From: a virus
Lineage: Duplodnaviria > Caudoviricetes
Strand: one strand, 5' to 3'
DNA length: 64,000 nt
Virus record (IMG/VR): IMGVR_UViG_3300029798_000001
Shown here: positions 1 through 59,311 of the stretch, one piece after another
Numbering within the stretch: the first letter of the stretch is position 1
Layout: the number at the start of each line of letters is the position of its first letter
The notes under the pieces: model-generated
What the model saw: only the letters and a program-made list of their open reading frames with translations
Databases searched by the model: none
What the model was told of the DNA's origin: nothing
Position numbers and translations under genes: made by a program

Positions 1-420
1 GCACAGAGTCTTTGCCGTGTATGGCCCAGCCATTTTACCGCAGATATTGCTGACCAATACGCACACAATCCCGAACGCATTGCCAATCGTGCCTATGCTG
101 GCCGTATGGGCAACGGTGACGAAGCGTCAGGTGATGGATGGAATTATTGCGGTCGCGGACTTATTCAGATTACTGGCCGCAACAACTATCAGGCCTTTGC
201 AGATAGCCTACAGATGAACATTGCGGATGTTCCTGCCTTCCTACAAACATTTGAAGGTGCTATACAATCAGCGACCGCATTTTGGGAAACCAATAATCTT
301 AATCAGTTTGCAGATAGTTGGAACATTCAAAAGCTAAGTATTAAGATCAATGGCGGAGAGTTGGGCTTACCAGAGCGTATTGCTCAATGTAACCATGCAC
401 TTCAAGTATTAAACACGTAA
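1..420 (+). CDS. GH19 chitinase/lysozyme-family endolysin, 5' partial
   Basis: Frame 1 is open from base 1 (AQSLCRVWPSHF...ANRAYAGRMGNGDEASGDGWNYCGRGLIQITGRNNY), with the GH19 GRGxIQxTGxxNY signature; followed by spanin-like genes. Confidence 0.9.
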   Translation, partial: AQSLCRVWPSHFTADIADQYAHNPERIANRAYAGRMGNGDEASGDGWNYCGRGLIQITGRNNYQAFADSLQMNIADVPAFLQTFEGAIQSATAFWETNNLNQFADSWNIQKLSIKINGGELGLPERIAQCNHALQVLNT

Positions 421-422
421 TT

Positions 423-557
423 ATGACAATAGCATTTTTATATCGATGGACTCAAAAATCTACAGGAATGTGGTATGAAGGCTCACGGACTGCTAACGGT
501 AAAGAAATGGATATCGATAATTTTAATAAATGGCTTAAGCGACAAGGAAGTGCATAA
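423..557 (+). pseudogene. Internally deleted GIY-YIG (Seg-like) homing endonuclease remnant
   Basis: 44-aa ORF MTIAFLYRWTQKSTGMWYEGSRTANG...; the start resembles the YxW...TGxxYxGSR opening of Seg-type nucleases but lacks the rest of the domain. Confidence 0.5.
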
Positions 558-1039
558 TGTTAGATATTATCATAAAATACGCAGTTGGTGGTTTTCCAAT
601 TTGGATGTGGCCTGCCTGTGCCGGCGGCAGTGCTGTGATATATTTTTTATTTCATGTTCTTAGTTCGTTACCACAAATTCGTCCATATGCTTTTTTAATC
701 AAACCAGTCAGTGCTATTGTGTTTATGATTAGTATTTTTATGTATGGTGGTGCTGGAGTAGATGCCATCTATAAAGCGGCATTTAAAGAACAACAACAGC
801 AACTTGAGCTGGCCCAACAGGCCAGCACCGATGCTACAAAACAGTTAACAGATGCTTTGGCCGCCAATGAACATTTAGTCAAAGGCCGTAATTATGGAGT
901 TAGTCAAATTATTATAAAAGACACAACCAAGATCAACGCAGATTGTAATCGAATCAACAACGATGCCTGGGAAGATTATAATCGTGCGGTAAAAAATACA
1001 GGTAGCAAACAATTGCCTGCTGCAGGAGCCAAACAATGA
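557..1039 (+). CDS. Inner-membrane spanin-like (Rz) protein
   Basis: N-terminal TM helices, Q/A-rich coiled coil, located after the endolysin and overlapping a lipoprotein gene. Confidence 0.6.
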   Translation: MLDIIIKYAVGGFPIWMWPACAGGSAVIYFLFHVLSSLPQIRPYAFLIKPVSAIVFMISIFMYGGAGVDAIYKAAFKEQQQQLELAQQASTDATKQLTDALAANEHLVKGRNYGVSQIIIKDTTKINADCNRINNDAWEDYNRAVKNTGSKQLPAAGAKQ

Positions 1040-1305
1040 AACAATTAATTGTTATTTTTGTATTTTTATTGACCGCTTGCGCCAACAATAAACCACCTGC
1101 TATTCCCAACTGGCCAACTGTGCCTGCTGATCTGCAACAGCCTGCTGCGGATCTAACACCCCTGGGCGCCAACCAGCATAATTTGTCCGATTTGATCAGC
1201 AATTCAAACGACAATTACACTCAATACTATATTTTAAAAGAAAAGTATGAAGGCTGGCAAAATTGGTATAATGGTCAACAAAAGATATGGCAAGGTCTTA
1301 AATGA
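1036..1305 (+). CDS. Outer-membrane spanin-like (Rz1) lipoprotein
   Basis: Signal peptide with lipobox LTAC, Pro-rich linker (KPPAIPNWPTVP); ATGA overlap with the Rz-like gene. Confidence 0.7.
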   Translation: MKQLIVIFVFLLTACANNKPPAIPNWPTVPADLQQPAADLTPLGANQHNLSDLISNSNDNYTQYYILKEKYEGWQNWYNGQQKIWQGLK

Positions 1306-1706
1306 AAAAGTTATTGTCGGCGGTATTTGTTCTTGCCCTCAACGGATGTGTTGCGTATGATGCTTACATGCTAACATCATTTGACTCAAATGAATACCAA
1401 CTAATGGCACAGATCCGTATTGATGCCAGGCATTTTGCCACCGCTTGTGCCAACCCTGTCATGGGCAAACCCAATGCTGTTGCCATGGCCAATGAAACAG
1501 AGCTGTTTGTGGCCTACAGCGAATACTTGCCACACAATAGCGATGCTGTCAACGCCGCTCGAGCATTGAATGAAATAGCACAAGGACTCAAAGATAGATA
1601 CAACTCGGGCGGTGCTGTTAGCCCGTTATTCTGCAGGTTAAAGTTCAACGGAATAGAACACAGCGCAGATTTAATACAACAAACCTTAGGAAATAGACCA
1701 AGATGA
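1302..1706 (+). CDS. Hypothetical lipoprotein
   Basis: Lipobox LNGC after a hydrophobic stretch. Confidence 0.6.
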   Translation: MKKLLSAVFVLALNGCVAYDAYMLTSFDSNEYQLMAQIRIDARHFATACANPVMGKPNAVAMANETELFVAYSEYLPHNSDAVNAARALNEIAQGLKDRYNSGGAVSPLFCRLKFNGIEHSADLIQQTLGNRPR

Positions 1707-1963
1707 CCATAGATGAAATTAACCAGCAATTGGCCGCATTGGCCAACTGCGGAGACCCACAATTTGCTCAGGCTGCACAGTATGTGGCACAGGCTACTGC
1801 TGCTGCTCAAGCAGGACAAATGAGCCCGCAAGAATTAACAGAAACTCTGCAGGACATGCAACGGCAGATGCAAATCATACAGGACATGGGTCAACTACAA
1901 TTGAAAGAAACCCTGAATACTGTAATCAATGGCCTGATCTTGATTGCCGCTGCGGCAACATGA
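1703..1963 (+). CDS. Hypothetical protein (Q/A-rich helical)
   Basis: ATGA-coupled ORF in the operon. Confidence 0.6.
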   Translation: MTIDEINQQLAALANCGDPQFAQAAQYVAQATAAAQAGQMSPQELTETLQDMQRQMQIIQDMGQLQLKETLNTVINGLILIAAAAT

Positions 1964-1997: not shown

Positions 1998-3080
1998 ATG
2001 ACAAATAAAGTATTATTCATCCTTAAACGCAGAGAAGATTACAACGCAGTGGAGCACAGTCCACAGGGACTTAGCACGGGCCTGTATAACTCGGCCAGCT
2101 TCATGAAAAACATGTTGGTCAACGCCGGGATTGACGCTGAACTTGAAGTTGCCATTGACAATAATGATATCGATCGACTGGTCACATTACACAAACCAAC
2201 TCATGTGATCATTGAAGCATTATGGGTGGTGCCCAGCAAATTTGCGGTATTGATTCCACTACACCCCACAGTTAGATGGATTGTTCGTCTACACAGTGAA
2301 ATGCCTTTTATGGCCGGCGAAGGCATGGCCATGGATTGGCTTGGAGAATACATTAAATTTCCTGAAATCAGTATTGGGGTAAATGCTCCTAGAATGCTGG
2401 ATGAAATTCGAACATATCTAGCCACTACAACAGATCATACGGAAGAAGAAACAGAAAGTCGCGTGTTTTATTTGCCCAACTACTATCCACAACAGTATAA
2501 CAGCAAAGATCTAGACGAACACAATCGTTATCGTGGCTACAAGTATTGGATTGATGTGGCCTGCTTTGGAGCGGTTCGTCCACTTAAAAACCACATGGTG
2601 CAGGCCGTAGCAGCCATCAAGTATGCTAACCAATACGGTAAACAGCTACGCTTCCACATCAATGCTGGCCGCATTGAAATGAAGGGCGATCCTGTGCTAA
2701 ACAACCTGCGCGGCATGTTTGAGCATCTAAGTGAGCATGGGCATCAACTAATAGCACATCAATGGGCAGTTAGAGAAGAATTCTTAGAACTATGTGCCGA
2801 CATGGACATAGGACTACAAACAAATTTTAGCGAAACATTTAACATTGTTTCGGCTGACTTGATTAGCCAAGGTGTTCCTATTGTTACCAGTAGAGAAATA
2901 CCCTGGAGCAACTGTATATTCAACGCTCGCCCTACAGAAAGTGACGAAATATATCATGCCATGACTAGAGCCTTGGTTTTTCCCAAGGCCAATGTGTGGT
3001 TGCATCAACACAATTTGACCCGTTATACCAATCGAACAGAAAAAATTTGGGTCAAATATTTTAAGGAGCCACAAAAATGA
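1998..3080 (+). CDS. GT-B fold (GT4-like) glycosyltransferase
   Basis: C-terminal GAVRPLKN and ETFNIVSADLISQGVPIV motifs; TAAATA at 1984. Confidence 0.7.
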   Translation: MTNKVLFILKRREDYNAVEHSPQGLSTGLYNSASFMKNMLVNAGIDAELEVAIDNNDIDRLVTLHKPTHVIIEALWVVPSKFAVLIPLHPTVRWIVRLHSEMPFMAGEGMAMDWLGEYIKFPEISIGVNAPRMLDEIRTYLATTTDHTEEETESRVFYLPNYYPQQYNSKDLDEHNRYRGYKYWIDVACFGAVRPLKNHMVQAVAAIKYANQYGKQLRFHINAGRIEMKGDPVLNNLRGMFEHLSEHGHQLIAHQWAVREEFLELCADMDIGLQTNFSETFNIVSADLISQGVPIVTSREIPWSNCIFNARPTESDEIYHAMTRALVFPKANVWLHQHNLTRYTNRTEKIWVKYFKEPQK

Positions 3081-3274
3081 GTAAACATCACTACAAAGTA
3101 AAAACACACCACTGGAGACAAGGTATTTTACACACAGCCGAGCAGGTATTTGAATCATTAGAAGAAGCCATGCAATACGCATTACACGCTGGCGGACACT
3201 CGGTTAAAGTTTATAACGAAAACGATCAATTGATACATCAGACCTCCGGTCAATCCAGCGATACCTATGCTTAG
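3077..3274 (+). CDS. Hypothetical protein
   Basis: Coupled 65-aa ORF. Confidence 0.6.
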   Translation: MSKHHYKVKTHHWRQGILHTAEQVFESLEEAMQYALHAGGHSVKVYNENDQLIHQTSGQSSDTYA

Positions 3275-3314: not shown

Positions 3315-3965
3315 ATGTCACAGTTAAGTGAATACAATCACTCTACCGACAGCGAAAAGAAAAAAGAAGACTGGATGAACAGCAAATGGCGTCCAATGAT
3401 GGGTTGGATGTATATGTGTATCTGTATGTTTGATTTTATGATTGCACCAATTCTTTGGTCCACGATACAAGCACTATTCCACGGTGGTATTACAACACAA
3501 TGGCAACCCCTGACCCTTCAAGGCGGTGGCTTGTTCCATGTGGCCATGGGTGCTGTTATTGGTATTAGCGCATACGGTCGCACACAAGAAAAACTAGAAG
3601 GTGTGGCCGGGTCCAATCAACCCATGGGCACACAGTATGTTCCGCCTGGCGGTATGGGCGGTATGGGCGGTATGGGCAGTATGAACTCAGGACAGGGTGG
3701 AGGATTTAACAATGGCGGATTTAACAATGGGTCGCAGTCAATGGGCAGTGGGTCAACATTTGGCGCACCTTCAACAGGAGGATTCGGAAGTCCAGCACCA
3801 GCATTTGGTAGCACACCGTCTCCAACATTTGGTTCAGCCCCAGCACCAGCATTTGGATCTACGCCAGCACCAGCATTTGGCGCAGCACCAACATTTAATA
3901 CAACACCACCGGTAACTGCCGCAGGCGGGCCAAGTGGTCCAGCGCAATCTTTTCCAGCACTATAA
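3315..3965 (+). CDS. 3-TM holin-family membrane protein with FG-repeat low-complexity tail
   Basis: WRPMMGWMY...LTLQGGGLFHVAMGAVIGISAYGRTQEK typical of the 3-TM holin family; RBS AGGAG; TAAATA at 3285. Confidence 0.7.
   Translation: MSQLSEYNHSTDSEKKKEDWMNSKWRPMMGWMYMCICMFDFMIAPILWSTIQALFHGGITTQWQPLTLQGGGLFHVAMGAVIGISAYGRTQEKLEGVAGSNQPMGTQYVPPGGMGGMGGMGSMNSGQGGGFNNGGFNNGSQSMGSGSTFGAPSTGGFGSPAPAFGSTPSPTFGSAPAPAFGSTPAPAFGAAPTFNTTPPVTAAGGPSGPAQSFPAL
3648..3880 (+). repeat. Coding repeats in the holin tail
   Basis: GGCGGTATG x3 at 3648-3674; CCAGCACCAGCATTTGG x3 at 3792, 3840 and 3864 (PAPAFG). Confidence 0.95.
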
Positions 3966-3975
3966 GGATACAAAA

Positions 3976-4179
3976 ATGATAAAATTATTAGTAACATCGA
4001 ACATAGCCGTTTGGTTATTTGTTGGATTCGAAGTAGCACACGCTGTTGAAACAAAGCAAGTGTGTCACGATGTTGTGGTTAAGGGCAAAACGGTTAATCA
4101 ATGTAAGACTGTTAAAATACACAAAAAAGTAGAAGGTACTCCTGTACCAGACGCACCTGCCAAAAAAGCCAAGAAGTAA
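3976..4179 (+). CDS. Small secreted, Lys-rich protein
   Basis: Signal-like N-terminus ending AHA; two Cys; RBS AAGGA. Confidence 0.55.
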   Translation: MIKLLVTSNIAVWLFVGFEVAHAVETKQVCHDVVVKGKTVNQCKTVKIHKKVEGTPVPDAPAKKAKK

Positions 4180-4208
4180 TTGACATCACCTCAAGCAGAC
4201 AGTATAAT
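4180..4208 (+). promoter_or_regulatory. sigma70 promoter (perfect consensus) for dnaJ
   Basis: TTGACA-17 nt-TATAAT. Confidence 0.9.
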
Positions 4209-4235
4209 TAATATGCTGTCTGCTTTTTCTTTTAT

Positions 4236-5036
4236 ATGACTAACCACTACCAAACTCTCGGCGTTAATCGTGACGCCACCTCGGACGACATTAAACGGGC
4301 TTATCGTCGGCTCGCTAGCCAGCATCATCCTGATAAAGGTGGTGACAAAGTTAAATTCCAAGAATTACAATCAGCATATGCTATATTAAGCGATGATCAA
4401 AAAAGAGCCGAATACGATAACCCAATGAGTAGAAGTAATGGGTTTAATTTTCATACCAATGGCGCTGGCCCGTTTAATTTTGAAAGTATTTTTGATATTT
4501 TTGGCGCCAAATTCCAAAATCCCCATCAGCAACACCATCGTAAGGCACAACATGCCGTAATGACATTATGGATCACCTTACGAGATGTCGCACAAGGCGG
4601 TAATAGAAGTATTAGTGTTGGTACCCACCAAGGCAATATGACAGTGGAAATAGAAATACCCAAGGGTATCAATGACGGCGATAGTATACAATATTCTGGA
4701 ATTGGCCCCGGAGGCATCGATTTAGTAATCACCTATAGAATACACCCAGATCCTAAATGGGCTCGTCAAGGCTCTACCTTACAAACAGAACATACTATAT
4801 CTATTTGGGATTTAATCCTAGGATGTGAGATACCAATAAAAGACATATTGGGTAATAATTTAAGTTTAGCTGTGCCAGCCGGAACACAGCCCGGAACCAC
4901 ACTACGACTACGAGGCCGTGGACTTACTCCTCGTAGCAGTGAAACTGGAGATTTATTGGTTAAGGTACAGGCACAAATCCCTACAGATATCCCACAAGAA
5001 TTATTGGATCATATTACTCAATTCCGCGGTCAATAA
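4236..5036 (+). CDS. Class B J-domain co-chaperone (DnaJ/CbpA-like, no zinc finger)
   Basis: J domain with HPD (HHPDKGGD), G/F-rich linker, DnaJ C-terminal motifs (PAGTQPGTTLRLRGRG, GDLLV). Confidence 0.9.
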   Translation: MTNHYQTLGVNRDATSDDIKRAYRRLASQHHPDKGGDKVKFQELQSAYAILSDDQKRAEYDNPMSRSNGFNFHTNGAGPFNFESIFDIFGAKFQNPHQQHHRKAQHAVMTLWITLRDVAQGGNRSISVGTHQGNMTVEIEIPKGINDGDSIQYSGIGPGGIDLVITYRIHPDPKWARQGSTLQTEHTISIWDLILGCEIPIKDILGNNLSLAVPAGTQPGTTLRLRGRGLTPRSSETGDLLVKVQAQIPTDIPQELLDHITQFRGQ

Positions 5037-5111: not shown

Positions 5112-7388
5112 ATGCAAACTAGTCCAGAAATTGAACAGATACTCGAAAATGCCGTTGGTTTGGCTCGTGAGTACAAACACGAATATGTATTAACCGAACA
5201 TGTGCTACTGGCCTTGATTCGATATAATCCTTTTAGAAAATGCCTAGAAAAATTTGGCACTAATGTTGAGTTGATGGATTCAGAAATATACGCATATCTA
5301 CTCAGTCTAGTTAATTTGGTTACTAATAAAGATGCGCCACCAAAAAAAACTAACGCATTAGAACGCTGTTTTAACCGAGCACTAACACAGGTATTGTTTA
5401 CTGGCCGCCGCCAAGTGGCTACCGCAGATTTATACATGGCCATGATGGCCGAAAACAATAGTCATGCTCATTATTTCCTACTCAAGTACGGAGTTAAAAA
5501 ACAAGAGTTTATGGAATTTTGGCAGGTCCATTATAATCATTCTGATGTTACCTTAAACGATCAACAGGCTACAGAAATACTCACACAGCATTGTTTAGAT
5601 CTTACTAAGTTAGCCAAAGAAGATCGACTAGAACCTATGATTGGTCGTAGTGAAGAACTTGATGAAATGATTACAGTACTAGCACGACGCTTTAAGGCCA
5701 ATGTATTGATGGTTGGTGATCCAGGGGTAGGCAAAACAGCTATCATCGAGGGCCTGGCCCAGGAAATTAATGCAGGACGGGTTCCTGAGTTTTTAAAGGA
5801 TCACGAAGTATGGAGCCTGGAAATTGGTAGCTTGCTCGCCGGTAGTAAGTATCGCGGCGAGTTTGAGGAAAAGTTTAAGGCAGTTATTACAGCTCTGGAA
5901 ACTAAAAAGAAATGTATTTTGTTTATTGACGAAGCACATACAATGATGGGTGCAGGAAGTTCAAGTAACAGCACATTAGACTTTGCAAATATGTTAAAGC
6001 CTGCTATTACCAAAGGTAATTTAAAAGTAGTAGCAAGTACTACCTGGGAAGAATATTATGGATCGTTTGAAAAAGATCGCGCTTTAATGCGTCGCTTCCA
6101 TCGTGTGAGCATTGACGAACCTACTCCAGCAGTAACTGAGCAGATCCTGATTGGACTTAGCCCTAGACTAGAAACATTCCATAATGTATTAATTGATACA
6201 GATGCTATTACAGCAGCCGTGGAGTTAAGTGGCCGCTACATACACGATCGTAAAAATCCAGATAAGAGTATTGATTTGATCGATGGTGCTTGTGCTAAAG
6301 AGCGGGTCAAAGACAAAGGTAATGTTACAGTTAATCGTGATATGATTATGGCGCAGTTAAGTCGTGTAACCAGTGTGCCGTTGGACCGATTGCAAAACGA
6401 ACGCAGTACCAATATTGTTGAGTTAGAAAGTAATATCAAACAAAAGCTCTATGGACAAGATGCCGCAGTTGATGCTGTGCTAGAGCGTGTCTATATTAAC
6501 TTCTCGGGTATTGGTAATCAAAAGCGTCCTATCGCCAGTTATCTATTCCTGGGGCCAACTGGCACAGGTAAAACAGAATTGGCCAAATTGTTAGCAGAAA
6601 ATCTAGATATGAAGTTGCTCAAGTATGATATGAGTGAGTATCAAGAACGGCATACTGTAAGTAGTTTAATCGGAGCACCCCCGGGCTATGTAGGTTTTGA
6701 AGATGGTAATATAGGCGGCGGCAAACTAATATCAGATATTAGTAAAAATCCTTTTAGCATTTTATTATTCGACGAAATCGAAAAGGCACATCCAGATGTA
6801 ATTAACATTATGTTACAAATGTTAGATGAAGCTCGTATCACCAGCAGCAACGGTAAAACCGTGGATCTTAAAAATTGTATCATTATTATGACATCTAATT
6901 TGGGTGCTCGTGATAACGAAAATAATAATATTGGATTTGGACAAAGTTTAGAAAAGACCGGCAGTGAAGACAAGGCTATGAAAGATTTCTTCAAGCCCGA
7001 ACTACGCAATCGTATTGATCAAGTATGTAAGTTTGTTAAACTTGACACCCTGGCAATTAAGAAAGTTGTTATTAAATTTGTAGATGAATTAAAAGCCAGC
7101 TTAGTTGAACGGAACATTCGATTAACTCTAGCCGAGTCAGTCATTGATATGTTAGCCGATAAAGGATATGATAGTAAGATGGGGGCTCGTCCGTTAGGTC
7201 GTAAAATTGACGAGTTAATTCGTGTACCATTGAGTAAACGCATCTTATTTGATCGCTTAGAAAATTGTACAATACATGCCGTTATGAATAATGATCAAGT
7301 TGAGTTTGTTTCGGATGAATCAATCATGCAACCCGGAGTTGATGAAGAAGGATATATAGTACTTGATCAATTTAAACCAACAGTTTAA
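5112..7388 (+). CDS. clpA: ATP-dependent Clp protease ATP-binding subunit ClpA
   Basis: Clp N-domain, two AAA+ modules (GDPGVGKT, GPTGTGKT), ClpP-docking IGF loop (NNIGFG), no ClpB coiled-coil M domain; 758 aa. Confidence 0.9.
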   Translation: MQTSPEIEQILENAVGLAREYKHEYVLTEHVLLALIRYNPFRKCLEKFGTNVELMDSEIYAYLLSLVNLVTNKDAPPKKTNALERCFNRALTQVLFTGRRQVATADLYMAMMAENNSHAHYFLLKYGVKKQEFMEFWQVHYNHSDVTLNDQQATEILTQHCLDLTKLAKEDRLEPMIGRSEELDEMITVLARRFKANVLMVGDPGVGKTAIIEGLAQEINAGRVPEFLKDHEVWSLEIGSLLAGSKYRGEFEEKFKAVITALETKKKCILFIDEAHTMMGAGSSSNSTLDFANMLKPAITKGNLKVVASTTWEEYYGSFEKDRALMRRFHRVSIDEPTPAVTEQILIGLSPRLETFHNVLIDTDAITAAVELSGRYIHDRKNPDKSIDLIDGACAKERVKDKGNVTVNRDMIMAQLSRVTSVPLDRLQNERSTNIVELESNIKQKLYGQDAAVDAVLERVYINFSGIGNQKRPIASYLFLGPTGTGKTELAKLLAENLDMKLLKYDMSEYQERHTVSSLIGAPPGYVGFEDGNIGGGKLISDISKNPFSILLFDEIEKAHPDVINIMLQMLDEARITSSNGKTVDLKNCIIIMTSNLGARDNENNNIGFGQSLEKTGSEDKAMKDFFKPELRNRIDQVCKFVKLDTLAIKKVVIKFVDELKASLVERNIRLTLAESVIDMLADKGYDSKMGARPLGRKIDELIRVPLSKRILFDRLENCTIHAVMNNDQVEFVSDESIMQPGVDEEGYIVLDQFKPTV

Positions 7389-11090: not shown

Positions 11091-14000
11091 ATGAATATTC
11101 AAGAATTGGATTCCTACAACCTTGGCGATGCTGTTAAGTTTAACAAGAAGTTAAACCCTCGGCTGTGGGGCAAAGACGAACATTTACTGCCGGAAGTGCG
11201 CGATCATCTATTAAAAATAGCCGATGATTTCCGCGAGTTCCTTGGAGTGACCGACCTACAACTAAAAGATATTACTATAAGTGGTTCAAATGCTGCCTAC
11301 ACCTATACTCCACATTCCGACATTGATCTACATTTAGTTGTAGATTTACCCGAAGCAGATGGGTCGGAAGTTTACCGTGAATTATTCGATGCCAAAAAGT
11401 ACCAATATAATGATATGCACCATATTAAAATTGGTGGATATGACATTGAAGTGTATGTACAAGATGCTAACAAGCCACATCGCAGTCAAGGTATCTATTC
11501 TATATTAAACAACCGATGGGTCGATGTACCTAAGCGTCGTCGACCCGAAGTAGATGACATCAGTATACGCAGTAAGTATGAAGATTTAAACCATCGTATT
11601 GAAGACGCGATTAAATCTAATAACCCCGACACAATAGGTGCATTGGCAAAAAAGATCAGCGATCTAAGACAAGCGGGCCTAGATGAACATGGCGAGTTTG
11701 GTCCAGAAAATCTAGCATTTAAAATGTTGCGTAGCCAGGGCATCATACAAAAATTATACGATGCTCGCAATGCCGCCAAAGATCACGAACTAAGTCTTAA
11801 AGAAAAAGCACCTCCAACAAGAGTTACATATGGATTTAAGACTCCGACTGTGGTAGAAGATGTTGGCATGTCGTGGGATGGCGTTAGCCCTAGTACTAAG
11901 ATGTTCCTAAGTGAAACAGAGTCAGACGAAGAAATACTTAAAGACTTTATTGAATTTTGCGTTAAAGAATTAAAAATTGAAAAGATGCCCGCGATCAAGT
12001 TGCGTAAAGATCCGCAATGGCCAGTGGTACACAAAACATTTGGTCGTTATATAAATGACCGGCACTTATTAGAAGTAGCCTGGGGTTCCCGCCATATTAT
12101 GGATGTACTACGCACTGTAGCCCACGAACTTACACATCGTCATCAACACGAGCGTGATGGCAACCGCATGGGACCCGAAGCTGGTGAAACTGGTAGTCCA
12201 TGGGAAAACGAAGCCAATGCCCGTGCCGGCGTACTAATGCGTGACTATGCTAGACTACATCCTGACTATTTTGCTGTAGGACAAGCCCAAGGCTTACACG
12301 CCGATGAGGTAACAGAAGCTTCTGTTATACAAAATCGTTTGCCGCCTAAGTTGGTAATAGGCGGCTATACATTTGTTCTTAATCCAACTACCCGCAATGT
12401 TACTGTTACTCATGGTGGCAAACCTTTTACTACCTACCATTATACTGGACTTAACAACTACGAATCATATGCAGATATTGCTTATCGTAAAATAGATCAA
12501 ACCAAATCAAGCGAGTTGGCAGATATAGCTAAAAGAGATCGTGCCAGCCCCACAGCGGCTCAACGTAGTTTTGAATACCCAACTGATTCCAGATATCAAG
12601 TTGCCATGCCCAATCAAGATCTTGACCAACTATATCGTCAGCACGATCAAGCAACAGCGCAACACGGAATCGTGGGCGGCATTACAGATTTTGGCAAATA
12701 CAGTTCCTTGGCCAAACGACGTAGACAGGCCGCACAAGCACAGGCCGACGAAGTTAAAGAAGCCAATCCAAATCAACAGTTGTCTTTGTATCGACCTGAT
12801 GGCACCACATACCGTGGTGAAAAAATGCCAGTGTTAGATCCAAACGATTTCCACAGTGACACCAATCCTCGAAAGCGTGTTGATCAAGTTACCCATCAAG
12901 ACTTAGCCAACAGGACTGCACCTGACCTGGTGGATCCTATTGAGCGGACTGAACGCAAGATTGACTTGGACCGATTAAAAAATGTAATTCGTGCCAACAT
13001 GAAAGATCTACTGTCAACTGAAACAGCAGTATTAAACATGCGTTACTGGAAAGACTTGACCTTGGAACAAACTGCACAAGCTCTGGGACTCACTCCTGAG
13101 CGTGTAAGACAAATAGAAGCCAAGGCCTTGAGAAAATTGCGGCATTTTTCCAAGAGCGATCAATTAAAACCGTTTGTAGAACCGCGGCTCACATGGCCAG
13201 GCATAAAAGAAGCTGTGGGCTACATTCCTACCGCGGCAGAAAAAAATGATCCTAGATTCAGCATGGCACTTACACAGGATATCCGTCCAGGACAACTAGG
13301 CAAAGAAGCAAACAAATTAAAATTAAAAACCAACAGTCAAGGCCAGCCGCAGATAGCTAATCCCAATGGCCTGTTTGAGAAATTAGCACTAGAGTTAGCA
13401 CAATTTAAAACGGTATCAGAGTCAGTAGAACAGTTAGACGAAGTGCGTATGGCTCCTAGCAACCTAATGCAGTGGGCCACCAGTCCAGAAGCCAAAGGCG
13501 TCCGTGCTGGTTTTGAAGCAGAGTTAATTTTCCGTGACACACAGCGTGATGATGACGAAGACTATGAAATGGAACCCGACTATGATCAAGATGAGCGTTG
13601 CCGTAGTATCAGTCAAGTAATAGACTTTTTTGGCGGTGGTGACTATGGCATGAGTAGTCGTGCATTAAACCGATTGCAGGAACAACTAGATGAAGCCTAC
13701 ATGGAGTGGCTTGATGAACAAATGATCTCTGACTTCAAACACGAAGCCGAAGATTTAATTCGTAAAGTATTAGTTGACGAAGGCGATTGGGATCTTGACA
13801 ACGAAATACAAAAGCAGTTGGCATTGATAGACGACCTAACAGATGACCAAATGAATGCTATTATACAAGCTGGCGAGCGGGCTCCTAAGTTTACAAGCAG
13901 TAAAGAAAAGGTATTATACGCAGAAGCTAATCCGTTATATGAAAAGTATTTAGATGCACAAGAAGAAGCCGAAGACCTGTTAGATGAGTTAGTTCAAGAT

Positions 14001-15851
14001 CATCTTAAAGCACAAGATGGTATTTACGATGCTGCCCTAGATGATTTCCGCGACAATTATTACATTGATGATGATAGTGGGTTTTTTGACGATGCCGGCC
14101 TACGATATATGAGTGACATAGCCAATAACTATGATGCAGAATGGCCCTACATGACCGGCGGTAATTCAGGCTCTGGCAGTCGTGATTGGGATAGCCTTAA
14201 AGATAGTTTAGAAAATACTATTGATATGCCAGTTAAAGTTAGCTCGGGCTATCACAATGCCACACGCAAAGAAGGTTTATGGATTATTGAACCTGATTCA
14301 AGCCTAACACCCGATGACTCCGATGACATGGGACTAGAAATCGTAAGTCCACCTATGCCACTATTGATGGCCCTGGAAAAATTACAAGCAGTCACAGACT
14401 GGGCCAACAGCGATACGGGCAATGCCTACACTAATAGTTCAACTGGCCTACACATGGGCGTTAGTGTTCCATTTAAAGGTGGTGATGTTGACTATCTTAA
14501 ACTAATCCTGTTCCTAGGTGACGAATATGTATTACAGAAGTTTGGTCGCGAAGCCAATACCTACTGTAAATCAGCTATGAGCAAGTTTAAAGAAAATATC
14601 AAAGGTGGTCGTGCTGACCCAGCAGGTGCGCTAAAACTCATGCAACACGGCCTACTTGAACTGGCACATAAAGAAATACAAAAAGGTGTAGGCGATGGCA
14701 AGTATACTTCGGCACATATACAAAACGGCTATATTGAATTCCGTAGTCCAGGTGGTGATTGGTTAGCTGAAGAGTCGGCTGACCCAGAAGTATTACAAAA
14801 CACTATGTTGCGTTTTGCCCGTGCTATGAGTCTTGCCGCTAACCCCAGTGAAGAACGCAGAGAATATGCCAAGAAGTTATACAAGTTAATTGCTCCTGAA
14901 GGTGACAGCGAGTTTGCATTGTTTAGTCAGTTTGCCGCGGGCGAACTCTCAGCAGAACAACTTAAGAAGCGTTGGGCTGAAAAGACCATCGGCACTGAAA
15001 AGAAAATGAATCAGCGTTGGCAATTATTCCAATTTGATAAGATTGCTGACCAATGGTTGCCAGTTCCCGGGCAGAGCTATAATGGCTACTCCGAAGATGA
15101 AGTTAAAAATAGAATATGGAGTAAGTTTGGGCGTGAAGCACTAGACTCCGGCGAATACGAACTACGCAACATGAGTGAAGACCAGCAGTGGGAAGTCTAC
15201 GATGTAAACACTGGTGAGACACTTGAGATTGTTGCAGGTAAGAACAAGGGCGAAGTAGCCGACAAAGTCTACGACAAGTATGCGGAGCAGGGAATTGGAT
15301 TTAATGTTCGACCATACGAAGATCCGGCAACAATGACTCCTCGTGCCAAGTTGGCCAAGCGTATTGCAACCAAGAAACCAGAACCGCAAAAACCTGCACA
15401 GGCTACAAACGAACGCGGTGTTCCTTATTGGGAAGTATATGAACTTGAAACTGGACATGTTGTCCATACTTTACTAAGCGACGATCTACCAGACGCTGTC
15501 ACAGACGCATACAATTGGCTGACTAGCATTGGTGCTGAACAACCAGACCTGTTTAAAGTGCGTCCTAAAATGAATGCCGACACTCCGGTCAAAGACATTG
15601 CACCCGATGTTGCTCAGAACTTTGGAGACGATTCAATGGCCGCCTACGAGAGGAACAGTGATCGCATTGATGCTATCAGAGCCGGACAAAATGCTACAGA
15701 CAGAGTAGGGTCCTGGAGCATATACGATGTTACCTTGGGGCGTGAAATCAGCAGAATGACCGATGTTCCGTGGCAAGAAGCCAGTGATCGTGCCGACATG
15801 CTCGAACGCAGTACTGGACATAATATGTCGGTCAGAGGGTTATCAGCATGA
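11091..15851 (+). CDS. 1586-aa multidomain polyprotein: Pol-beta-type nucleotidyltransferase, HExxH peptidase, sigma70 region 4 HTH, amidoligase, C-terminal repeats
   Basis: SGSN...SDIDL; HELTH...ENEANA; LTLEQTAQALGLTPERVRQIEAKALRKL; EPDSSL/GLEIVSPP/STGLHM/IEFRSPG; TAAATA at 11079. Confidence 0.8.
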   Translation: MNIQELDSYNLGDAVKFNKKLNPRLWGKDEHLLPEVRDHLLKIADDFREFLGVTDLQLKDITISGSNAAYTYTPHSDIDLHLVVDLPEADGSEVYRELFDAKKYQYNDMHHIKIGGYDIEVYVQDANKPHRSQGIYSILNNRWVDVPKRRRPEVDDISIRSKYEDLNHRIEDAIKSNNPDTIGALAKKISDLRQAGLDEHGEFGPENLAFKMLRSQGIIQKLYDARNAAKDHELSLKEKAPPTRVTYGFKTPTVVEDVGMSWDGVSPSTKMFLSETESDEEILKDFIEFCVKELKIEKMPAIKLRKDPQWPVVHKTFGRYINDRHLLEVAWGSRHIMDVLRTVAHELTHRHQHERDGNRMGPEAGETGSPWENEANARAGVLMRDYARLHPDYFAVGQAQGLHADEVTEASVIQNRLPPKLVIGGYTFVLNPTTRNVTVTHGGKPFTTYHYTGLNNYESYADIAYRKIDQTKSSELADIAKRDRASPTAAQRSFEYPTDSRYQVAMPNQDLDQLYRQHDQATAQHGIVGGITDFGKYSSLAKRRRQAAQAQADEVKEANPNQQLSLYRPDGTTYRGEKMPVLDPNDFHSDTNPRKRVDQVTHQDLANRTAPDLVDPIERTERKIDLDRLKNVIRANMKDLLSTETAVLNMRYWKDLTLEQTAQALGLTPERVRQIEAKALRKLRHFSKSDQLKPFVEPRLTWPGIKEAVGYIPTAAEKNDPRFSMALTQDIRPGQLGKEANKLKLKTNSQGQPQIANPNGLFEKLALELAQFKTVSESVEQLDEVRMAPSNLMQWATSPEAKGVRAGFEAELIFRDTQRDDDEDYEMEPDYDQDERCRSISQVIDFFGGGDYGMSSRALNRLQEQLDEAYMEWLDEQMISDFKHEAEDLIRKVLVDEGDWDLDNEIQKQLALIDDLTDDQMNAIIQAGERAPKFTSSKEKVLYAEANPLYEKYLDAQEEAEDLLDELVQDHLKAQDGIYDAALDDFRDNYYIDDDSGFFDDAGLRYMSDIANNYDAEWPYMTGGNSGSGSRDWDSLKDSLENTIDMPVKVSSGYHNATRKEGLWIIEPDSSLTPDDSDDMGLEIVSPPMPLLMALEKLQAVTDWANSDTGNAYTNSSTGLHMGVSVPFKGGDVDYLKLILFLGDEYVLQKFGREANTYCKSAMSKFKENIKGGRADPAGALKLMQHGLLELAHKEIQKGVGDGKYTSAHIQNGYIEFRSPGGDWLAEESADPEVLQNTMLRFARAMSLAANPSEERREYAKKLYKLIAPEGDSEFALFSQFAAGELSAEQLKKRWAEKTIGTEKKMNQRWQLFQFDKIADQWLPVPGQSYNGYSEDEVKNRIWSKFGREALDSGEYELRNMSEDQQWEVYDVNTGETLEIVAGKNKGEVADKVYDKYAEQGIGFNVRPYEDPATMTPRAKLAKRIATKKPEPQKPAQATNERGVPYWEVYELETGHVVHTLLSDDLPDAVTDAYNWLTSIGAEQPDLFKVRPKMNADTPVKDIAPDVAQNFGDDSMAAYERNSDRIDAIRAGQNATDRVGSWSIYDVTLGREISRMTDVPWQEASDRADMLERSTGHNMSVRGLSA

Positions 15852-20841: not shown

Positions 20842-23800
20842 GGAAAAATAAATGTTTGCATTAGACCTATTCAACACAAAATACGAGAAGTCACTACAAG
20901 AGGGTGCCACAGATAACACGACCGAACATCTGCTTAAACCTCTCCATCTCCGTGCTGCAAACATTCTTACACAGTTGCGTTCCGGACATACTACTCCTGA
21001 AAAAGTAGCGGCCCTTACAAAAGAATATGAAGATTTAGTTGCAGAGCGTATGAGTATTCTTAAAGGTGAACACCCAGAATCAACAAACGAAATGGGTTAC
21101 GGTAGTCTAGGCGAAGATGATATGATTCCAGTTGGTCGTATGCAACCCGGTACACCAGAATATGCTGCCGCCCGTAATCGTTCTGTAAAATACGCAGAGT
21201 TGACACCAGATTACACAGGCGGGCATAAAACTGCTGGCCCTACTACTGTCGGATATAAAAAAGCAACAAACAAACCGTTGGTCCCAGGCGAAGTTGAAGT
21301 GGCGGAAGCCGGATTACCGGGCAATTTACCTCCAGAACAAATTCCGGGTAAAGAAGATTTACTAAAAGGTAAGGGTCGTCAAACTTACGAAGAAAATATA
21401 GACGAAGGGTTTGGCCCTGTTGGTAGTAAGGGATTAATGAATGGCAATTTTGCTACATTTATGAAAGCTCGCCAAAACAGGACACCAGTTACATTAGAAA
21501 TCGGTGGTGAGGAGTTTAGACTTACACCAACAATGATGGATGCTATGGCTAAGAAATATCTTGCAGATAAAGCCGCTAGTGATGCAGCCCCTACTAATCG
21601 AGATATAAAATTAATAGCTGTTAACAATTATCGTGCATTTGGTTATCCACAATTGATGAGAGCATTTATCGACGGTGTTGCTACTCACGACAACACTCCT
21701 CCGGCTAATGTGCCAGGTGAACAGTTGCCAATGTTCGAAAGAACTCAACAGGTTCAAAAAAAAAATTCTAAAAAAGCCGATCCAGATTTAGGTGCCGGTA
21801 CAGCTCGAGATGCGACGGTACAGAGAGAACTTCAAAAGGTTCGGGCCCGCCATCCTAATGCCCGTAGCGATATCGAAGCCCTGGTCAAAGACGAAATAGT
21901 TAATCAAGAACGAGTTGACCAGGAATTGTCTCAACAACAAGATAATATTCAACAACAAACAGCTCAATTAGCACAATTAGGTAGTGTAAATCGACAACAA
22001 GATACAAAAATAAACAGTTTACAGCAACAGTTAGCTACCGCGGTACAGTCTATTAAATCTGCACCCGTTACTCCAGCTACTACAAAACCCGCCAGTATGC
22101 CTGTTAGTAAGCCTGCTAGTGTTGCTCCTGCAACTACTACAGTGCCAAGTAGTATTACAGCAGCATTGCCGGTACCACAGACAGCCAAGGATCAAGAAAT
22201 TTACGATAAAGTTCAAAGTCTCGAAACAGAGCTTAAAGACAAAATTGATGCCATGGCTAGCTGGAATGCTATTGCACAAAAAGATCCTCAATCTAATAAT
22301 GAACTTACAGCACTGCGCAAAGAAGTTGAGCGCACTAAGAAAGAATTACAGCAACAAATTATTAAACTTAAACCAATTAAAAAGAAACCAACAACTCAAG
22401 CTCCGGCGTTATCAGACCCTAATGTAATTGATATAGATGCTTGGGAGGTTCCGGGGATGGCAGTACCCGAAGTGCCTGATAATATAAAAACCGAGCCAGG
22501 AACTGCTACGCCCGCAAAAGAATTACCGATTGATCAATTAGATCACCAAGTTGATACTACTCCATTCGCCGGTGGTACTAAAAACAATCAATGGGGTCCA
22601 AAAAATATGCCAGGTGGCAGATTTACAGTACAAGATGTTGACCCTTACGACATCGGAGTTCATGAAGCTGTTGAACCCGGTGAAGAAATCTCAACAAATG
22701 AATTACTATACCGTGCGGCTGTTGAGTATATGCAACACATGGGCCGCGAAGGTCAGCCAGTTGACTACGAAACAGCCGTTAAGTTGGCAGCCAAACATTA
22801 CCATATTCCTTACCGCCCAGGTATGGTTCCAGAATTACATGCCAAGCGTCAAGAACTAGATGCTAAACTTGATGCGGCTATTAGAGCTCGTCAAGCCGAG
22901 CGTGGTGCCCGTAAACAACGACAACTGGCTCGCACAGCGCCAACTACCCCAGAACAGGAAAAGAAAATGCAAGACTATTGGTCCAAGAATGCGCCACAGG
23001 CTACAAGAGTAAAAGCACCAACACGAAGTTTAGAAGAAAATCAACAGTTACATGTCGGTGATCCTATTGTTGTTACAGCACCCAACGAGTTTGAAGGTAA
23101 GACTGGTGAGATCTACGACTTTGCGCCAAGTGGCAAGTTTGTTATTGTCAACTTGTACAATCACGGCAAACACAGTATGCACCTAAGTGATGTTGAATAC
23201 AATCAATATGCCAACGACCAAGATGAGAAAGAATTTTGGAATGGTGATAAAGAAGTTAATGAAAGCAATATGAGTGAGTTAGATGCAATGCGTCAAGATC
23301 TTGAATTAATGAATGATCGCCAATTTAAAGTTGCCTATGGTATAAGCAAGGTAGCATTTAGGCAAAAGTATCGTGCATTATTGAATCCAGCACCTCAACA
23401 AGATGTTCCGGTAGAAGAAGGATGGCAAGACTTCAACAAGGTAGAGCCATATGCTGTTTGTTTAGCTGGCAAGCCTGTTAAGAAGTTTGACTACTATGAA
23501 GAAGCTCGCCGCTTCCACGATAACTGGAAGAAGAAGTTGTACCGCGAAGGCAACAAAGAAAAAGCAGATAAGATTACCTTGATGCCCATCATGGACGAAG
23601 GTGATGATCAGAATGGTCAACCTAGGGCTGGATTACCTGCAAATTTTGCAAACAGAATAATGGCATTAGATTTTCCACAAAGAAAAATATTTAGAGATTA
23701 TATAAATTCATTTAACAAAATTCGCCAGGCATCGGCCGATCTTAATAAGATGTTGGCTGGATTTCCTAAAGATATTATTGACGCTTATCAACAGTTAACT

Positions 23801-59233: not shown

Positions 59234-59311
59234 GGGCGGTTAGCATAGTAGGTTAATGCCGGCGACTCATAATCGTCAGAGTGATAGGTTCAAATCCTTC
59301 ACCGCCCACCA
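59234..59311 (+). tRNA. tRNA with CAT anticodon (elongator Met or lysidine Ile2)
   Basis: GGGCGGT/ACCGCCC acceptor stem, GCAT/ATGC D-stem, anticodon loop CTCATAA, TTCAAAT T-loop, encoded CCA; G1:C72 excludes the initiator. Confidence 0.9.

What the first reader, a model, noticed from the sequence alone, without database searches (positions are those of the whole stretch)
3315..3965. Holin-family protein with a nucleoporin-like FG-repeat tail
Seen: after the membrane domain, about 120 disordered residues with GGM x3, GGFNN x2 and six FG dipeptides spaced about 8 aa apart (TFG, GFG, PAFG x3), built from exact 17-nt DNA repeats. Established: spaced FG/PxFG repeats form selective condensate barriers in nuclear pores. 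Inference: the tail may self-associate to time hole formation or gate a large membrane lesion; an FG-gated phage pore would be unusual.
Basis: partly seen in the sequence, partly recalled or inferred. Interest (0 to 1): 0.6.

Follow-up and report, generated by a model that had tools for sequence, protein, structure and literature searches.

The report
Phage holin with charge-free FG tail
A large uncultured phage encodes a hole-forming lysis protein (holin) with a real, conserved, charge-free FG-rich disordered tail, but across its relatives the constant part is a short peptide at the very end of the tail that tracks the phage's cell-wall enzyme and may tether it to the holin.

Summary
ORF 3315-3965 (216 aa) is a two-helix holin core (Pfam PF11351 above its cut-off; PHROG holin). 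It is followed by about 120 residues with no charged residue, three GGM, two GGFNN and six FG spaced 7-8 residues apart, encoded by exact DNA repeats. It lies in a lysis cassette with a GH19-like endolysin and spanin-like genes.

All 120 closest relatives keep the PAPAFG repeats. In the wider family (969 clusters) FG is patchy: 46% of motif-bearing tails have three or more FG and 34% have none.

Two features are conserved:
- a nearly charge-free, aromatic-studded linker of variable length;
- a C-terminal peptide, G-K-x-x-P...[Q/D/E]-P-x-[L/I]-COOH.

That peptide co-occurs with the GH19-like endolysin (37 loci with both, 0 with the peptide only, 2 with the enzyme only, 9 with neither). Its divergence follows the endolysin's more than its own membrane core's. 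A co-fold of the pair gave weak support (0.59; best control 0.02).

Best reading: a cytoplasmic tether ending in a docking peptide, probably for the endolysin. FG cohesion as a lysis timer is possible but untested, and an FG-gated pore has no support. This is a new variant of a known kind. The same tail was noted by first readers on five other genomes.

The parts
3315..3965 (+). Holin gene, 216 aa (P0001)
   Evidence: ORF; PF11351 at 32.5 bits against a cut-off of 24.8; phrog_3427 holin.
3315..3392 (+). N-terminal cytoplasmic segment, aa 1-26 (K/R-rich, ending in the conserved W-R-P)
   Evidence: 5 K+R. Across 60 family members the N-flank has a mean of 3.9 K+R against 0.3 in the loop.
3393..3479 (+). 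Transmembrane helix 1, aa 27-55
   Evidence: Hydropathy peak; AF2 helix 12-54 with pLDDT 85-90; invariant Y33, C37, D40 and P45.
3480..3521 (+). Short periplasmic loop, aa 56-69 (conserved W-Q-P-L-T-L-Q)
   Evidence: No charged residue; nearly invariant W63, P65, T67, L68 and Q69.
3522..3578 (+). Transmembrane helix 2, aa 70-88 (G-G-G-L-F-H...)
   Evidence: Hydropathy; start of AF2 helix 66-98; invariant G70, G72, H75 and G79.
3579..3593 (+). Invariant juxtamembrane motif R-T-Q-E-K, aa 89-93
   Evidence: R89, E92 and K93 are invariant in 60 sequences. The motif is present in 146 of 150 sequences checked (149 representatives plus the query).
3603..3914 (+). Charge-free disordered linker, aa 97-200
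   Evidence: No D, E, K or R. Almost no secondary structure; pLDDT about 50. No Pfam hit.
3648..3683 (+). 9-nt tandem repeat x4 encoding GGM x3
3698..3730 (+). 15-nt tandem repeat x2 encoding GGFNN x2
3759..3881 (+). FG region, aa 149-189: six FG at 7-8 residue spacing; includes the 24-nt repeat 3792-3880 and three exact 17-mers
   Evidence: Against L011, pN/pS over the aligned codons 129-193, which include this region, is 0.38.
3915..3962 (+). Conserved C-terminal peptide, aa 201-216 (here ...G-G-P-S-G-P-A-Q-S-F-P-A-L; close relatives have G-K-P-S-G-P...)
   Evidence: pLDDT rises to 74. The motif is shared by FG and non-FG tails. It co-occurs with the GH19-like endolysin and co-varies with it.
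1..420 (+). 3' part of the GH19-like endolysin gene, cut by the window edge; candidate partner of the tail peptide
   Evidence: phrog_181 endolysin at 1.3e-46. 100% identical to the C-terminal 139 aa of the 203-aa L011 endolysin, which has no N-terminal signal or TM segment.
557..1039 (+). 160-aa membrane protein with a coiled-coil-like C-terminal half (i-spanin-like by position)
   Evidence: Sequence; conserved position after the endolysin in L005 and L006; no family hit.
1036..1305 (+). 89-aa lipoprotein, o-spanin-like
   Evidence: Lipobox-like N-terminus; phrog_16495 Rz-like spanin at 1.8e-4.
3976..4179 (+). Small 67-aa protein with a signal-peptide-like N-terminus, directly after the holin
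   Evidence: first in-frame ATG of ORF 3934..4179. A small gene holds this position in relatives. Function unknown.
4193..4225 (+). Terminator-like hairpin (14-bp stem plus T run) that closes the lysis unit before dnaJ

Best explanation
The gene encodes the holin of a large uncultured phage. It is a two-helix, N-in/C-in member of the PF11351 holin family. It would accumulate in the inner membrane and open holes that release a soluble GH19-like endolysin encoded in the same cassette.

Its roughly 125-residue C-terminal tail lies in the cytoplasm and has two functional layers:
1. A long, flexible, nearly charge-free linker studded with aromatic residues. In this clade these take the form of PAPAFG repeats, kept and resized by repeat slippage.
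2. A conserved C-terminal peptide (G-K-x-x-P...[Q/D/E]-P-x-[L/I]-COOH) that acts as a docking motif.

The most likely partner is the endolysin. It would then be held under the membrane at the holin and released, or carried through, when the hole opens. The FG/aromatic stickers may add weak tail-tail cohesion that favours holin clustering.

Shown here: family membership, cassette context, disorder, the conservation patterns and the co-occurrence. Inferred: topology, docking, the partner's identity and any effect on lysis timing.
For: Holin identity:
- PF11351 scores above its gathering cut-off and the PHROG hit is 'holin'.
- A PF11351 member, ICP1 TeaA, has measured holin activity (PMC7182436).
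- The endolysin and spanin-like genes are upstream here and in relatives. In many IMG/VR loci the endolysin abuts the holin, with gaps of 4-14 nt.
- The endolysins have no signal or TM segment, so they need a holin.

Topology:
- K+R averages 3.9 in the N-flank, 0.3 in the loop and 2.5 in the C-flank across 60 members.

Disorder:
- Almost no secondary structure and pLDDT about 50 for residues 99-200.

Conservation of the tail:
- All 120 closest homologs keep the FG repeats and the C-terminal peptide.
- 28 of 90 long-tail representatives end in P-x-[LIVM], against 2% at internal positions.
- Linkers of 82 motif-bearing tails have a median of 1.1% charged and 8% aromatic residues.
- K34 is at least 90% conserved and P43 is invariant in 45 C-termini.

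Partner:
- In 48 distinct loci, motif against GH19-like endolysin gives 37 with both, 0 motif only, 2 enzyme only and 9 neither. Fisher p = 3e-8, not phylogeny-corrected.
- Loci that keep dnaJ and clpA but have a different protein at the endolysin's place also lack the motif.
- Divergence of the last 14 residues correlates with endolysin divergence (r = 0.43; partial r = 0.41 given the holin core, p = 2e-4). The correlation with its own core is 0.21, with DnaJ 0.32 and with ClpA 0.28.
- Co-fold of the endolysin with the last 45 tail residues: verdict 'weak support', score 0.59, best of 3 controls 0.02. The mark was reached by 58 of 80 solved complexes and 2 of 110 mismatched pairs. At 0.60 or under it was reached by only 7 of those 80 solved complexes and by both mismatches that passed. 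Runs agree in at least 40% of contacts and the partner's pLDDT is at least 45. My own alignments were used, so these counts hold only roughly.
Against: - No experiment exists on this protein. Binding is a prediction, and the co-fold pass is of the weak class ('more often wrong than right unless the guess was likely beforehand').
- The co-occurrence and Mantel statistics are not phylogeny-corrected. All genes sit in one syntenic block of one phage lineage.
- The query itself has G where relatives have the nearly invariant K of the motif.
- The canonical view is that endolysins leave through holin holes without binding the holin.
- The PF11351 match covers only profile positions 51-122, and only two helices are present where the family name says three.
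- A distant homolog in phage PA5oct is annotated as a virion 'structural protein' from mass spectrometry. In T4-like loci the gene sits among tail and packaging genes.
Confidence: 0.45

Rival explanations
1. First reader's model. The FG tail is a cohesive, nucleoporin-like domain. Tail-tail association, as a 2-D condensate under the membrane, sets the time of holin raft formation, or an FG mesh gates the lesion. This is not exclusive of the docking model.
For: - Residues 97-216 are charge-free, with six evenly spaced FG.
- FG is kept in all 120 closest homologs.
- Linkers across motif-bearing relatives are nearly charge-free with about 8% aromatic residues. This is a sticker-and-spacer make-up.
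- The region containing the FG repeats (codons 129-193) has pN/pS of 0.38, below 1.
- FG-rich tails appear in at least 4 places on the core tree.
Against: - 28 of 82 motif-bearing tails have no FG and 4 have no aromatic residue, yet they keep the cassette and the C-terminal peptide.
- The tails match no Pfam family, the nucleoporin FG models included.
- The tail has only 6 FG, against dozens in FG nucleoporins (the latter from general knowledge).
- A cytoplasmic tail under a micron-scale hole has no obvious gating role.
- No tool here can test phase behaviour.
Confidence: 0.15
2. The C-terminal peptide docks something other than the endolysin. Candidates are the neighbouring phage chaperones (class-B-like DnaJ and ClpA-like ATPase, by analogy with the G/M/P-rich tail and terminal peptide of eukaryotic Hsp70), an antiholin, or a host factor or protease for which it is a degron.
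For: - dnaJ lies 225-420 nt downstream of the holin in most related loci, and clpA follows it.
- The motif co-occurs with dnaJ: 34 with both, 3 motif only, 6 dnaJ only, 5 neither (p = 0.01).
- Motif divergence correlates with DnaJ divergence at r = 0.32.
- The GGM repeats recall chaperone tails (from memory, not tested).
- A conserved small secreted-type protein follows the holin.
Against: - Six loci keep dnaJ and clpA without the motif, and three distinct motif-bearing loci lack dnaJ within 10 kb.
- A strong terminator-like hairpin separates the holin unit from dnaJ in the window, overlapping a perfect sigma-70-type consensus match.
- The correlation is lower than with the endolysin.
- These pairs were not co-folded, because only one job was allowed.
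Confidence: 0.22
3. The tail is functionally neutral low-complexity sequence produced by replication slippage. Only the membrane core matters.
For: - The repeats are exact at the DNA level.
- Tail length varies from 10 to about 160 residues in the family.
- The window and L011 differ by indels of 24, 3 and 36 nt in the linker.
- Cultured jumbo-phage homologs have short or different tails.
Against: - The C-terminal peptide is conserved across very different linkers.
- The linkers keep a narrow composition, with a median of 1.1% charged residues.
- FG is retained with synonymous changes between the window and L011, and tail pN/pS is 0.28.
Confidence: 0.06
4. The protein is not a holin. It is instead a virion-associated or infection-stage membrane protein of large phages, for example part of an ejection or superinfection-exclusion apparatus.
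For: - The PA5oct homolog is annotated as a structural protein from ESI-MS/MS.
- Homologs in T4-like contigs lie between tail-tube, small-terminase and baseplate genes.
- Only part of the PF11351 profile is matched.
Against: - In this lineage the gene is consistently in or next to the endolysin-spanin cassette.
- No other holin candidate was found in the window's cassette.
- Family members have shown holin activity.
- Holin genes inside late structural operons are known, for example T4 gene t (general knowledge).
- Membrane proteins can contaminate virion preparations.
Confidence: 0.08

Closest known systems
PF11351 / TCDB GTA-holin family (R. capsulatus GTA holin; Vibrio phage ICP1 TeaA)
   Same: Significant profile match to the last two-thirds of the family model. 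It is a small inner-membrane protein encoded with an endolysin. TeaA collapses the PMF and lyses cells (PMC7182436).
   Different: It has two helices, not three, and lacks the N-terminal third of the model. It carries a roughly 125-residue charge-free disordered tail with a conserved terminal peptide. Among the 48 related representatives with tails of 20 residues or fewer, most carry a long N-terminal extension and a 10-residue tail.
Class II holins (two TM helices, N-in/C-in; e.g. lambdoid S21-type)
   Same: Predicted helical hairpin with both ends in the cytoplasm.
   Different: No sequence relationship was tested. Classical holins have short, highly charged C-terminal tails (general knowledge); here residues 97-216 carry no charge. 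The endolysin is soluble, not a SAR type, so a large-hole holin is expected rather than a pinholin.
T4 holin T
   Same: A holin with a large non-membrane domain that binds a partner protein to control lysis (general knowledge; PMC11413866 and PMC12162936 are listed). The ICP1 family member TeaA is also regulated by an antiholin.
   Different: T's extra domain is folded and periplasmic and binds the antiholin RI. Here the extra part is disordered and cytoplasmic, and it ends in a short linear motif.
Cohesive FG domains of nucleoporins (Nup98/Nup62-type)
   Same: Charge-poor and G/S/T/P/A/N-rich, with regularly spaced FG including PAFG/GFG-type motifs. The comparison with nucleoporins is from general knowledge.
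   Different: No profile similarity. Only 6 FG in about 50 residues. Membrane-anchored on a phage holin. FG is replaced by W/Y motifs, or is absent, in many relatives.
Phage AP1 HolAP-LysAP
   Same: Precedent for a reported direct holin-endolysin interaction, by bacterial two-hybrid (PMC8879335).
   Different: That is a probable pinholin with an endolysin that carries its own membrane segment. The families are unrelated, and no tether or terminal docking peptide is described.

Membership tests
PF11351 GTA_holin_3TM | Score above Pfam's gathering cut-off | tested here: met
   32.5 bits against 24.8, E 1.3e-7, but only profile positions 51-122 of 123 are matched. Most homologs are precomputed as PF11351.
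PF11351 GTA_holin_3TM | Three transmembrane helices | tested here: not met
   Two hydrophobic helices only. Relatives with N-terminal extensions of 43-132 residues probably carry the third.
Holins (functional class) | Small membrane protein encoded with an endolysin that lacks its own export signal | tested here: met
   The endolysin is 2.9 kb upstream here, 1.3-1.8 kb upstream in L005 and L006, and abutting in many loci. It has no signal or TM segment.
Holins (functional class) | Timed, lethal permeabilisation of the inner membrane | not testable with these tools
   Shown only for the family member TeaA (PMC7182436).
Holins (classical anatomy) | Short, highly charged cytoplasmic C-terminal tail | tested here: not met
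   The tail is 128 residues. All four charges lie in R-T-Q-E-K-L-E and residues 97-216 are uncharged.
FG nucleoporin repeat domains | Match to the Pfam nucleoporin FG repeat profiles | tested here: not met
   No Pfam family up to E = 10 for four FG-rich tails.
FG nucleoporin repeat domains | Disordered, charge-poor sequence with many spaced FG motifs | tested here: met
   Six FG at 7-8 residue spacing and no charges; pLDDT about 50. The number of FG is small.
FG nucleoporin repeat domains | Cohesive phase formation and selective permeability | not testable with these tools
   Needs purified protein.
Short linear docking motif (C-terminal) | Conserved peptide at the end of a non-conserved disordered region, with a partner that co-varies | tested here: inconclusive
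   Conservation is met. Co-occurrence is 37 both, 0 motif only, 2 enzyme only, 9 neither. The Mantel partial r is 0.41. The co-fold gave weak support at 0.59 against a best control of 0.02. No binding has been measured.

The most novel reading that the evidence does not exclude
Holins of this widespread uncultured phage lineage use a nucleoporin-like, charge-free aromatic/FG tail to form a cohesive layer under the inner membrane. That layer both nucleates holin rafts, acting as the lysis clock, and concentrates the endolysin through the C-terminal docking peptide. This would be a membrane-tethered condensate that couples enzyme loading to hole formation, and a bacterial-virus example of FG-type phase behaviour.
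Probability: 0.12. Interest if true: 0.8.

Novelty: new variant of a known kind. Interest (0 to 1): 0.55.

Why it matters
In the textbook model, holins and soluble endolysins do not touch, and holin tails are short and charged. Here a large, environmentally common phage lineage has replaced that tail with a long charge-free disordered tether that ends in a conserved peptide tracking the endolysin. The lineage is large: thousands of database proteins and contigs of 200-360 kb.

If the peptide docks the endolysin, lysis in these phages includes a recruitment step that nobody has described. It would also offer a simple handle for testing how holin clustering is timed. The FG-rich versions give a compact, natural, membrane-anchored system for asking whether FG-type cohesion works outside eukaryotic nuclear pores. 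If none of this holds, it is an ordinary holin with a decorative low-complexity tail.

Tried and rejected
- Near-identical DNA in 50,697 phage records: none. The phage is uncultured. No whole genome is held for the window.
- tblastn in cultured phages found only the membrane core, in the jumbo phages Phosso, Atu_ph07, PA5oct and relatives, and NCTB. Their tails are short or Q/Y/P-rich, so they do not inform on FG.
- Tail alone against Pfam up to E = 10: nothing.
- Tail against the ESM Atlas: no usable feature hit, and the structural rows are meaningless for a disordered segment.
- Literature search for holin with FG repeat: no paper links the two.
- Hsp70-tail-mimic / DnaJ-docking idea: considered because of the GGM repeats and the adjacent class-B-like J protein, then demoted. 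The motif tracks the endolysin better than DnaJ, and a terminator-like hairpin, overlapping a consensus promoter match, separates the units. It was not co-folded, because only one job was allowed.
- Periplasm-spanning tail (TonB- or spanin-like): rejected on the positive-inside pattern and on the soluble cytoplasmic endolysin.
- Core phylogeny: the careful tree did not finish, and the quick tree on 94 columns is poorly resolved (80 of 148 forks open). Only the 'at least 4 places' statement is used.
- dN/dS rests on one pair of sequences and is only indicative.

Full report
**1. The observation**

ORF 3315..3965 on the + strand encodes 216 residues. Residues 6-89 match Pfam PF11351, GTA_holin_3TM, at E 1.3e-7 and 32.5 bits against a gathering cut-off of 24.8. 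Only profile positions 51-122 of 123 are covered. PHROGs gives phrog_3427, 'holin'.

The DNA repeats are a 9-nt unit x4 (3648-3683), a 15-nt unit x2 (3698-3730) and a 24-nt unit x3.7 (3792-3880). An exact 17-mer is present three times, against none expected. Shuffling the tail gives 2.3 FG on average, and P(6 or more) = 0.011.

Residues 97-216 contain no charged residue at all. AlphaFold2 on a 60-sequence alignment gives two helices (12-54 and 66-98, pLDDT 79-90). The tail from residue 99 has almost no secondary structure, with pLDDT about 50 up to residue 200. Confidence rises to 74 over the last 16 residues.

**2. Context**

The window belongs to a large uncultured phage. There is no near DNA match in 50,697 phage records and no genome is held. 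Related contigs reach 200-360 kb.

Upstream lie:
- the 3' part of a GH19-like endolysin at 1..420 (phrog_181, 1.3e-46);
- a 160-aa membrane/coiled-coil protein;
- an 89-aa lipoprotein with a weak Rz-like spanin hit;
- a second lipoprotein and an 86-aa tail-anchored-type protein.

In relatives L005 and L006 the same order runs straight into the holin. The window has an extra 360-aa and 65-aa gene pair in between.

Among 80 IMG/VR loci the endolysin is usually within a few kb upstream and often abuts the holin, at 4-14 nt. The endolysins start with soluble sequence and have no signal or membrane segment, so they need a hole-forming holin. A PF11351 member, ICP1 TeaA, has been shown to collapse the PMF and lyse cells (PMC7182436).

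The positive-inside pattern over 60 members gives K+R of 3.9 in the N-flank, 0.3 in the loop and 2.5 in the C-flank. This places both ends, and so the tail, in the cytoplasm.

**3. Survey of homolog tails**

A word-index search gave 6,632 hits. The best 120 (51-100% identity) all keep PAPAFG-type repeats, with 3-9 FG, and a conserved end: G-K-P-S-G-P-A-Q-S-F-P-A-L or G-Q-K-V-V-P-Q-A-T-Q-P-M-L. So FG is conserved in the near clade.

An exhaustive HMMER search with the core alone (residues 1-105) found 969 representative clusters. Their tails run from 10 to about 134 residues. An invariant juxtamembrane R-[TGS]-[QK]-E-K follows helix 2.

FG-rich tails are a minority of the representatives. On a poorly resolved core tree they fall in at least four places.

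A terminal peptide recurs across very different linkers. 28 of 90 long tails end in P-x-[LIVM]-COOH, against 2% at internal positions. 27 of 90 fit G-[KRQ]...P...P-x-[LIVMRQ]-COOH. In 45 aligned C-termini the K is at least 90% conserved and the penultimate-region P is invariant.

Over 82 distinct motif-bearing tails:
- linker length is 26-140 residues;
- charged residues have a median of 1.1%;
- aromatic residues have a median of 8%;
- G/S/T/P/A/N/Q make up about 80%;
- 38 tails have three or more FG, 28 have none and 4 have no aromatic residue.

The family-level constants are therefore a charge-free, polar, aromatic-studded tether and a terminal peptide. FG is the commonest flavour, not a requirement.

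Between the window and L011 the linker differs by indels of 24, 3 and 36 nt. The aligned codons 129-193, which contain the FG repeats, carry synonymous changes, with pN/pS of 0.38. The core has 0.06 and the C-terminal part 0.22 (one pair only).

**4. What the terminal peptide may bind**

In 48 distinct loci with enough flank, the motif and the GH19-like endolysin occur together in 37. The motif occurs alone in 0. The enzyme occurs alone in 2, and both of those end in a motif-like ...P-H-P-E-I. Neither occurs in 9 (Fisher p = 3e-8, not corrected for phylogeny).

The motif-negative loci are of several kinds:
- Some are T4-like contigs where the gene sits among DNA-end-protector, tail-tube, small-terminase and baseplate genes. 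These carry other conserved endings (D-P-P-x-R-N-x-R-x-D-L, or A-D-P-D-S-V-F-D-R-G).
- Others keep the downstream dnaJ-clpA pair. They have a phrog_13138 protein at the endolysin's position and a different holin ending.

With dnaJ the association is weaker: 34 both, 3 motif only, 6 dnaJ only, 5 neither.

Divergence of the last 14 holin residues correlates with endolysin divergence at r = 0.43 to 0.46. The partial r given the holin core is 0.41, p = 2e-4. The correlation is lower with its own membrane core (0.20-0.21), with DnaJ (0.32) and with ClpA (0.28).

One co-fold was run, with an alignment of 45 endolysins and an alignment of the matching 45-residue tail ends. The verdict was 'weak support':
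- The score was 0.59 and the best of 3 controls was 0.02.
- The mark was reached by 58 of 80 solved complexes and 2 of 110 mismatched pairs.
- At 0.60 or under it was reached by only 7 of those 80 solved complexes and by both mismatches that passed.
- The runs agree in at least 40% of contacts, and the partner's pLDDT is at least 45.
- My own alignments were used, so the counts hold only roughly.

A reported holin-endolysin contact exists for the unrelated phage AP1 pair (PMC8879335).

**5. Mechanism proposed**

The protein is a two-helix, N-in/C-in holin. Its cytoplasmic tail is a flexible uncharged tether ending in a docking peptide, most likely for the endolysin. This would concentrate the enzyme at the sites where holes open. 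A tether of 70-140 residues could even let bound enzyme reach the wall through the hole.

Aromatic/FG stickers may add weak cohesion between tails and so influence the critical clustering that triggers holins.

Shown: family, cassette, disorder, conservation and co-occurrence. Inferred: topology, docking, partner and effect on timing. I put about 0.85 on 'holin', 0.7 on 'terminal peptide is a docking motif', 0.4 on 'the partner is the endolysin', and 0.1-0.15 on a functional FG-cohesion role.

**6. Rivals**

The composition fits, but FG-free relatives and the lack of any test keep it low. A gate in the lesion has no support.
- Docking of DnaJ/ClpA, an antiholin, or a host factor or degron. This is possible. 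It is weakened by the contingency tables and by a strong terminator-like hairpin overlapping a 12/12 sigma-70 consensus match between the holin unit and dnaJ.
- Neutral slippage product. This is contradicted by the conserved ending and the narrow linker composition.
- Not a holin. The PA5oct homolog is annotated as a virion protein from mass spectrometry, and the gene has structural-module neighbours in T4-like contigs. This is outweighed by the cassette context in this lineage.

**7. Known families and novelty**

The core is a member of PF11351 by score, though not by the nominal three helices. The tail is not a member of any Pfam family. Its likeness to cohesive FG nucleoporin domains is compositional only.

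I found no paper linking holins and FG repeats or describing such tails. This is a new variant of a known kind.

The scan's first readers flagged the same kind of tail on five other genomes, with no follow-up. This fits the wide distribution seen here.

Noticed in passing
window 4180-4225: A perfect sigma-70 consensus (TTGACA, 17 nt, TATAAT; 12 of 12) at 4180-4208 overlaps a 14-bp-stem terminator-like hairpin with a T run at 4193-4225, between the small ORF after the holin and dnaJ. It looks like a transcription-unit boundary and restart.
   Followed up: no
window 4236-5036 and 5112-7388: The phage encodes a class-B-like J protein (J domain, G/F-rich stretch and DnaJ_C, with no zinc finger detected) and a 758-aa ClpA-like double-AAA protein. 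The pair is conserved downstream of the holin in most related loci, sometimes with a peptide deformylase between them. Their divergences correlate at r = 0.91.
   Followed up: partly
window 1998-3274: A 360-aa ORF and a 65-aa ORF with no family hit sit between the lysis genes and the holin. Relatives L005 and L006 have a single 94-117-aa gene there instead.
   Followed up: no
window 557-1963: The cassette holds a 160-aa protein with several hydrophobic segments plus a coiled-coil-like half, two consecutive lipoproteins (89 and 134 aa) and an 86-aa protein with a C-terminal hydrophobic anchor. Only the 89-aa one has a (weak) spanin hit. The roles of the others are open.
   Followed up: partly
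L016, L028, L062, L070; L026, L038, L065: Holin-core homologs in T4-like contigs, lying between tail-tube, small-terminase and baseplate genes, carry other conserved C-terminal endings (D-P-P-x-R-N-x-R-x-D-L, or A-D-P-D-S-V-F-D-R-G) after variable linkers. These may be alternative docking peptides for other partners.
   Followed up: partly
L001:3001-3525 (Sinorhizobium phage Phosso): The cultured jumbo-phage homolog has a roughly 65-residue Q/Y/P/N-rich, prion-like tail instead of FG. Atu_ph07, PA5oct and NCTB have short tails. The PA5oct protein is annotated as a structural protein from ESI-MS/MS.
   Followed up: partly
window 1-420 against L011:1930-2538; window 3315-3965 against L011:6051-6767: The endolysin fragment is 100% identical in protein to L011's, yet the holin gene differs at 43% of synonymous sites in its core and by three indels in the tail. 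This points to mosaic recombination inside the lysis cassette.
   Followed up: partly
window 3648-3683: The GGM x3 run resembles, from memory, the GGM tail of GroEL and the GGMP repeats of Hsc70. This was not tested.
   Followed up: no
window 11091-15851 and 20852-25930: Two giant ORFs (1,586 and 1,692 aa). The first has a weak sigma-factor-like stretch (phrog_351, residues 612-732). The second is almost unannotated.
   Followed up: no
window 59234-59311: A single tRNA-Met (CAT) gene.
   Followed up: no
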